Shown: piece after piece, positions 51,748 through 51,856 of the stretch
Layout of the letters: each line of letters opens with the position of its first letter
Position numbering within the stretch: position 1 is the stretch's first letter
Origin: Octopus sinensis
Lineage: Eukaryota
Direction: 5' to 3'
Assembly (NCBI RefSeq): GCF_006345805.1
Contig: NC_043000.1
Coordinates: 106,268,001 to 106,332,000, forward strand
DNA length: 64,000 nucleotides
The notes under the pieces: generated by a model
Told to the model about the DNA's origin: nothing
Database searches by the model: none
Seen by the model: the letters and a program-made list of their open reading frames with translations, nothing else
Program-made: the position numbers and the translations under genes

Positions 51748-51856
51748 GGTTACTGATGAGAATTCGCCTGGTAGATAATATGGTCTTGCTAAATTATCTA
51801 TTAAAAGATGGCAAGCAATATTATTTGCTAAAGAAATTCGAAACCATGGTATAACC
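51748..51856 (+). ncRNA. Type I hammerhead ribozyme with ~80-nt extended stem II
   Basis: ggtta-CTGATGA-gaatt...aattc-GAAA-ccatgg-TA-taacc: canonical core, G10.1-C11.1 pair, palindromic ACCATGGT stem III, cleavage predicted after 51851. Confidence 0.82.

What the first reader, a model, noticed from the sequence alone, without database searches (positions are those of the whole stretch)
51748..51856. Intact hammerhead with an unusually long stem II, sense strand of IFT25 intron 3
Seen: perfect core, 5-bp stem I and palindromic stem III. Stem II extends ~80 nt through four helices: GAATT/AATTC, TGGTAGATAATAT/ATATTATTTGCTA (G-U rich), CTTGCT/GGCAAG and ATCT/AGAT. It lies in a ~350-bp element (~51635-51995) abutting the giant TA array. 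Inference: if active it would cut IFT25 pre-mRNA co-transcriptionally. With the 50455 ribozyme it could excise a ~1.33-kb intronic RNA (50517-51851) bearing 5'-OH and 2',3'-cyclic phosphate ends, which are ligatable to a circle.
Basis: partly seen in the sequence, partly recalled or inferred. Interest (0 to 1): 0.76.

Follow-up and report, generated by a model that had tools for sequence, protein, structure and literature searches.

The report
Jumping repeat with long-armed hammerhead ribozyme
The predicted self-cutting RNA in this IFT25 intron is one decaying copy of a roughly 480-base repeat found at many places in the genome, whose hammerhead always carries an unusually long 80-base arm; it likely serves the repeat's own copying and likely does not regulate the gene.

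Summary
In detail: an intact type I hammerhead (51748-51856) with an 80-nt closed stem II lies on the sense strand of IFT25 intron 3. It is not a one-off. It belongs to a 483-bp non-coding repeat, with 63 pattern matches of both core halves genome-wide against 1 control. Copies end in (TA)n and show partial tandems, 5' inversions and two preferred 3' ends, like Penelope-like element (PLE) insertions. The long stem II is the family norm (78-83 nt in 57 of 60 core-intact copies), with two compensatory pairs between subfamilies. The window copy is truncated; its three private substitutions are CpG decay, one costing a stem I pair. The 50455 ribozyme belongs to a different TA-seeking repeat, and the same two families sit together at 4 other places, so the proposed 1.33-kb circle looks like chance. 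Best reading: a non-LTR retrozyme likely mobilised by a PLE; neither cleavage nor the partner is shown. New relative to the papers I saw: stem II length (6-8 bp is called long there). Two other abundant families here carry 46- and 58-nt stems II, and Rfam misses this one. Verdict: new variant of a known kind, moderate interest.

The parts
51638..51997 (+). Truncated copy of the 483-bp TA-flanked repeat (family B), unit positions 58 to about 417; its 3' end runs into the TA array
   Evidence: 93-96% identical to the nearest copies
51638..51678 (-). 5' inverted piece (unit positions 58-98), as in inverted retrotransposon insertions
51743..51746 (+). AGGC just 5' of stem I, complementary to GCCT (51766-51769) in stem II: a competing fold or a possible loop 1-loop 2 contact (untested)
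   Evidence: 90.9% paired but no change on both sides
51748..51752 (+). Hammerhead stem I, 5' strand (6 bp in most copies; 5 bp here after G>A at 51857)
51753..51759 (+). Catalytic core CUGAUGA
51760..51839 (+). 80-nt closed stem II: 5-bp base (51760-64/51835-39), 13-bp helix (51769-81/51818-30), 6-bp helix (51785-90/51810-15), 4-bp cap (51796-99/51806-09)
51840..51851 (+). GAAA, palindromic stem III (A-CCAUGG-U) and cleavage triplet GUA; predicted cut after 51851
   Evidence: self-duplex -13.2 kcal/mol
51852..51856 (+). Hammerhead stem I, 3' strand
51994..53520 (.). (TA)n array at the 3' end; most mapped 3' ends of the family run into TA tracts
50385..50540 (+). Separate 155-bp TA-flanked repeat (family A) with its own type I hammerhead (50455-50539, U.U at the base of stem II, predicted cut after 50516)
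50013..50087 (+). IFT25 coding exon 3 (upstream border of the host intron)
   Evidence: by translation and splice sites
53623..53765 (+). IFT25 coding exon 4 (downstream border of the host intron)

Best explanation
The hammerhead is part of a 483-bp non-coding repeat present in many copies, which is likely a non-LTR retrozyme moved by a Penelope-like element's enzymes, and the copy in IFT25 intron 3 is likely a chance, decaying insertion with no role for the gene. Shown: the unit, its copies, TA-tract ends, partial tandems, inversions, and a stem II of about 80 nt kept across subfamilies. Inferred mechanism: tandem copies are transcribed, and the hammerheads cut the multimer into monomers of about 490 nt, helped by pairing of two palindromic stems III. 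Monomers may be ligated to circles. A TA-targeting PLE reverse transcriptase/endonuclease would copy the RNA into TA tracts, often from uncut or religated templates. The long stem II is likely tolerated by the core, since it stacks beyond a normal 5-bp base, and kept as part of the element RNA's fold.
For: Copies: 1004 first-look candidates, the 40 scored 89-96% identical; 98 exact hits of the 3' half against 2 controls; 63 hits with both core halves 62-92 nt apart against 1 control, 3 of the 63 unrelated by eye. Anatomy, from 190 distinct segments: 3' ends at unit position 481-483 in 83 and 395-424 in 76; TA-rich sequence directly after 92 of these 159; 30 of 43 unit starts preceded by another unit's end; 52 of 147 internal 5' ends joined to inverted element sequence. 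Fold: 60 of 77 copies spanning the ribozyme keep the core, and stem II is 78-83 nt in 57 of the 60. In 69 aligned copies 92.2% of cells pair (slid controls 30-56%), with A-U 53 / G-C 14 at the base of stem II and C-G 27 / U-A 26 in its distal part. A diverged relative (L210, 69-77% alike over the 3' half) keeps the core and palindrome with a different, still paired stem I and a 38-nt stem II. The 492-nt monomer from tandem L015 folded as a circle has z -3.8 against 40 shuffles. Decay: the window copy's three substitutions are all CpG transitions. A young TA-flanked PLE with RT, CxxC and GIY-YIG-type regions is abundant in this genome.
Against: No cleavage, circle or strand-specific RNA was shown. 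The PLE family tested shares no real sequence with the unit, so the partner is unidentified. Only 5 pairs change on both sides, fewer than in shuffles (mean 6.5, 455 of 500 as high), and the two strong ones are single inherited events. RNAalifold did not recover the hammerhead fold. 5' ends are not enriched at the cut site: 3 of 147, 1.7 expected, p 0.23. Arrays are short (at most three units seen, L005), unlike the long arrays of some retrozymes.
Confidence: 0.8

Rival explanations
1. The IFT25 copy cuts the pre-mRNA often enough to matter, and with the 50455 ribozyme releases a 1.33-kb intronic RNA that becomes a functional circle.
For: Both cores are intact and on the sense strand. A 2-bp stem III with a tetraloop allowed monomer cleavage in published retrozymes: 22% per hour for the axolotl motif described with that stem; coral and mussel monomers 0.8 and 0.1 per min (PMC7229834). 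RtcB ligates such ends.
Against: Two unrelated repeat families that co-occur at 4 other places, once in the same orientation (L138). The window copy lost a stem I pair. Its active fold is about 7 kcal/mol above the MFE in context. The two stems III cannot pair with each other (-1.3 against -13.2 kcal/mol for the self-duplex). Family A has U.U at the base of stem II. Cores show no extra conservation among copies.
Confidence: 0.05
2. The unit is the solo terminal repeat (pLTR) of an autonomous PLE not yet found, with no life cycle of its own.
For: PLE-like anatomy. Retrozyme families are homologous to pLTRs in Xenopus (bioRxiv 10.64898/2026.07.22.740005). One fragment sits beside a PLE ORF and is followed by a short piece resembling that ORF's start (L086).
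Against: Full units start at a sharp boundary directly after TA or after another unit's end, not after coding sequence. No homology with 30 copies of the PLE next to L086. No ORF of 100 aa or more overlaps the window copy.
Confidence: 0.1
3. The ribozyme is catalytically dead in the whole family and the long stem is a neutral hairpin insertion.
For: Competing folds dominate in silico. Eight of nine Xenopus retrozyme dimers did not cleave in vitro. Cleavage was not needed for PLE insertion in vitro (PMC11167929). Several copies hold two uncut cores.
Against: Core, G10.1-C11.1 and stems persist across subfamilies about 20% apart, with compensatory pairs, and in the more distant relative L210. 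Three copies begin within one base of the cut site (L029, L067, L123), a weak hint only.
Confidence: 0.05

Closest known systems
Metazoan non-LTR retrozymes (coral, mussel, axolotl; PMC7229834; vertebrate survey bioRxiv 10.64898/2026.07.22.740005)
   Same: Type I hammerhead with a short palindromic stem III in a non-coding, AT-rich unit of a few hundred bp; tandem copies; strongly self-paired predicted circle; PLEs in the same genome.
   Different: Stem II is an 80-nt four-helix arm, not about 4 bp plus a loop. Copies are mostly dispersed monomers and partial tandems in TA tracts with 5' inversions. Circular RNA is not shown here.
Penelope-like elements and their pLTR hammerheads (PMC4209133, PMC8557442, PMC11167929)
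   Same: Microsatellite insertion bias, tandem and inverted insertions, two preferred 3' ends reminiscent of the PLE tail, palindromic stem III suited to dimers.
   Different: No ORF in the window copy; no homology to the one PLE family tested. PLE hammerheads are described with helix II of 6-8 bp and often an extra base before it, which this one lacks.
Single intronic ribozymes in mammals (C10orf118 hammerhead, named in a legend of PMC3088659; CPEB3 ribozyme, search listing only; RECK hammerhead recalled)
   Same: A self-cleaving motif on the sense strand of an intron.
   Different: Those are single-copy and conserved (recalled). This one is one of many copies, truncated and decaying at CpG sites.

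Membership tests
Type I hammerhead ribozyme | Core CUGANGA, GAAA and UH around a three-way junction, stem I open | tested here: met
Type I hammerhead ribozyme | Helices I, II, III can form; G10.1-C11.1 and A15.1-U16.1 | tested here: met
   helix I 95.9%, helix II base 96.8%, helix III 95.6% of cells paired
Type I hammerhead ribozyme | Loop 1-loop 2 tertiary contact | tested here: inconclusive
   AGGC/GCCU pairing possible in 90.9% of cells, no change on both sides; it may be an inhibitory fold
Type I hammerhead ribozyme | Site-specific self-cleavage | not testable with these tools
   needs an in vitro assay
Non-LTR retrozyme | Short AT-rich non-coding unit with a type I hammerhead | tested here: met
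   483-bp unit; no ORF of 100 aa or more over the window copy; GC 0.33 over the ribozyme
Non-LTR retrozyme | Head-to-tail copies with a hammerhead in consecutive units | tested here: met
   L005, L015 (period 492) and L065; 30 of 43 unit starts follow another unit's end; arrays are short
Non-LTR retrozyme | Expressed as monomeric linear and circular RNA | not testable with these tools
   only contigs of runs guessed to be RNA were available
Non-LTR retrozyme | No LTR, primer binding site or polypurine tract; long target duplications when present | not tested
   no formal search; TA flanks hide duplications
Non-autonomous Penelope-like element | Partial-tandem and inverted insertions, microsatellite targets, alternative 3' ends | tested here: met
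Non-autonomous Penelope-like element | Sequence shared with the ends of an autonomous PLE | tested here: inconclusive
   none with 30 copies of one PLE family; other PLE families not surveyed
Domesticated intronic ribozyme | Single copy under locus-specific constraint | tested here: not met
Domesticated intronic ribozyme | Conserved at the orthologous site in other individuals and species | not tested
   no result obtained for this locus

The most novel reading that the evidence does not exclude
This genome holds several abundant retrozyme-like families whose hammerheads carry long closed stems II (80, 58 and 46 nt). Rfam misses the 80-nt one, and narrow descriptors would miss such motifs too. 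The arm is a selected module, either the handle by which a TA-targeting PLE protein recognises the RNA or a switch that holds cleavage off in circles. These elements would then be direct genomic evidence that PLEs move retrozymes.
Probability: 0.25. Interest if true: 0.6.

Novelty: new variant of a known kind. Interest (0 to 1): 0.36.

Why it matters
It also adds an architecture not seen in the papers I read, where a long helix II means 6-8 bp. Because Rfam misses it, hammerhead counts in such genomes may be too low. The PLE-type insertion anatomy bears on the open question of which enzyme moves animal retrozymes, so far argued from co-occurrence and trees. For IFT25 itself it probably matters little.

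Tried and rejected
Rfam at gathering and E-value thresholds: no hammerhead hit at either ribozyme. Pfam on single IFT25 exons and on the PLE remnant: 0 of 5 matched; the PDB sequence search identified IFT25 instead. RNAalifold gave only a weak, different fold. Partner search: the PLE beside L086 shares no real sequence with the unit. Pile-up of 5' ends at the cut site: not significant. Short-stem versions of this family: 15 pattern hits with stem II of 6-36 nt; of the 5 fetched, only L210 is related to the unit. Sequencing runs: no RNA holder listed; all are guesses or unlabelled, kept as contigs. The contig in run X2 that links a unit start to a unit end has under 31 letters on one side and is not counted as bridging. 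Whether the IFT25 insertion is fixed or polymorphic, and whether intron RNA runs across 51851, remain untested. A genome-wide covariance-model count was not obtained. Metagenome scan for the motif: 0 hits. Earlier findings of this scan: none. Paper searches: 'long stem II' with hammerhead ribozyme 0 papers; retrozyme with cephalopod 1 listed, the PLE clade paper; long or extended helix II wordings 5 papers, of which the two I opened use it for 6-8 bp; hammerhead ribozyme with Octopus 4 listed, none with such an element in title or abstract. Subscription papers and supplements were not seen and may hold similar motifs.

Full report
Observation. Stem II folds into the four named helices (z -4.67, 0 of 200 shuffles). 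A comparable descriptor gives 2 hits in the window and none in 60 shuffles. Rfam does not detect it. The host gene is IFT25 on the + strand: coding exons near 38985-39076, 47294-47399, 50013-50087 and 53623-53765, with exons 2 and 4 matching IFT25 chains. Both this ribozyme and the one at 50455 lie in intron 3.

What it is. Searching the genome (2.72 Gb, 13,516 contigs) with 51635-51995 gave 1004 candidates; the 40 scored are 89-96% identical over about 320 bases. The 3' half of the ribozyme occurs exactly 98 times (control 2). Both core halves at 62-92 nt spacing occur 63 times (control 1; 3 rows unrelated by eye). I mapped 122 partly overlapping loci, chosen by similarity or by the exact 17-mer and so biased towards intact 3' halves, onto a 483-bp full unit; this gave 190 distinct segments. 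3' ends fall at the unit end (83) or at 395-424 (76), and 92 of these 159 run straight into TA-rich sequence. 30 of 43 unit starts follow another unit's end, and 52 of 147 internal 5' ends join inverted element sequence. The window copy has a 41-base 5' inversion and stops at the shorter 3' end, at the 1.5-kb TA array. Microsatellite bias and tandem/inverted insertions are described for PLEs (PMC8557442, passages). Two reverse-transcription start sites give the PLE tail (PMC11167929, first part and passages).

The long stem II is a family trait. 60 of 77 copies spanning the ribozyme keep the core; 57 of these 60 have 78-83 nt between the core halves. I aligned 69 of 78 segments, dropping 7 with large deletions and 2 duplicates. 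92.2% of cells pair, against 30-56% for slid controls. There are A-U 53 / G-C 14 at the second pair of stem II and C-G 27 / U-A 26 in its distal part. Against this: only 5 pairs change on both sides (shuffle mean 6.5), the structure was taken from one member, and RNAalifold did not find the fold. The covariance model built from this alignment picked out L210, a relative 69-77% alike over the 3' half. L210 has the same core and palindrome, a different paired stem I and a 38-nt stem II, so arm length varies within the clade. Two other young families, met by chance in fetched loci, have stems II of 58 nt (2112 candidates) and 46 nt (840 candidates), with the scored copies 96-100% identical.

The IFT25 copy looks unselected. 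Against 32 copies found by similarity it differs by one inserted base, a 3-base deletion and three CpG transitions, one of which removes the sixth pair of stem I. Rare alleles are as frequent in the core (2.6%) as outside the ribozyme (2.3%). The catalytic fold is 3.1 kcal/mol above the MFE alone and about 7 above with flanks, because AGGC before stem I can pair with GCCU in stem II. Stem III pairs with itself at -13.2 kcal/mol but with the 50455 ribozyme at -1.3. The 50455 ribozyme belongs to a separate 155-bp TA-flanked repeat (1034 candidates). Its long stem I likely comes from fold-back duplication, since several copies are near-perfect palindromes. The two families lie together at 4 other places among 207 fetched loci (L025, L088, L138, L199). 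Their meeting in this intron needs no explanation beyond a shared target.

RNA evidence is thin. Four runs, all contigs, three guessed to be RNA and one unlabelled, were laid on a full unit. One contig in X2 (238 nt, depth 45) covers the cut site with more than 31 letters on each side, which fits uncut RNA, religated RNA or DNA. One contig in X1 (depth 6.8) has clustered changes equal to A-to-G on the element's sense strand, five of them absent from X16. That would fit editing of a sense transcript, but the runs carry different organism labels and no matching DNA run was laid.

Mechanism. Shown: unit, copies, ends, fold potential. Inferred: tandem copies give multimeric RNA. The hammerheads cut it into monomers of about 490 nt, probably best as dimers through the palindrome; this dimer model and the short palindromic helix III of animal hammerheads are described in PMC4209133 (first part and passages). 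Monomers may be closed by RtcB, as for coral, mussel and axolotl retrozymes (PMC7229834, parts 2-4 of 6); the L015 monomer folds strongly as a circle (z -3.8). A PLE enzyme would then copy the RNA into TA tracts. A young TA-flanked PLE with long open frames is abundant (27,801 candidates) but shares no real sequence with the unit, so it is only a candidate. 5' ends are not enriched at the cut site (3 of 147, p 0.23). This agrees with the finding that uncut RNA was the main substrate of a lizard PLE in vitro.

Comparison and novelty. It works like a metazoan non-LTR retrozyme and meets the sequence criteria; the RNA criteria could not be tested. A 2026 preprint argues that such elements are non-autonomous PLEs and finds 42-44% of Xenopus copies in introns (parts 1-3 of 5), so an intronic copy is ordinary. 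In the papers I opened, a long helix II means 6-8 bp, and stem II is often very short (PMC3088659, passages). My searches found no report of an 80-nt closed stem II or of cephalopod retrozymes, but subscription papers and supplements were not seen.

Verdict. The structure is real and belongs to a new architectural variant of a known kind of mobile element (confidence 0.8). The gene-regulatory and intron-circle reading is unlikely (0.05). Interest 0.36; 0.6 if the arm proves to be a functional module.

Noticed in passing
window 15500-15600 (-), core at 15579; a second partial copy near 16065 (+): A third type I hammerhead with a 26-nt stem II in a TA-flanked element with long inverted repeats; the same motif occurs in L046.
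   Followed up: partly
window 17249-17932 (-): Open frame that reads like a PLE reverse transcriptase thumb plus GIY-YIG remnant (label recalled, no Pfam hit).
   Followed up: partly
L154:3860-4010 (-) and L170:4200-4360 (+); L036:1240 (+): Other hammerheads with long closed stem II (58, 46 and 55 nt). The first two are young, abundant TA-flanked families, often in inverted pairs.
   Followed up: partly
L086:6012-7796 (-) and L148-L177: Young TA-flanked PLE with RT, CxxC and GIY-YIG-type regions and many long open frames. Its 3' UTR reads as a minimal hammerhead with the U3-A8 core variant and a CCGG palindrome (read by eye; variant described in PMC4209133).
   Followed up: partly
window 50385-50540 and L031-L055: Family A: a 155-bp element between TA tracts; in several copies the 5' core half is replaced by an inverted copy of the 3' arm, giving a perfect hairpin.
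   Followed up: partly
L209, L211, L212: A further hammerhead family with a short stem II, an extra base after A9 and the same CCATGG palindrome, so cross-family dimers are conceivable.
   Followed up: no
L022:1523-1558, run X1: Clustered A-to-G-type differences on the element's sense strand in one contig, in a predicted hairpin; possible editing, unverified.
   Followed up: partly
window 32164-32583 (-): A 139-aa open frame that reads like a leucine-rich-repeat exon on the strand opposite to IFT25 (label by eye).
   Followed up: no
window 3204-3276 (+): Weak Rfam tRNA match (30 bits, cut-off 29), probably a tRNA-derived repeat head.
   Followed up: no
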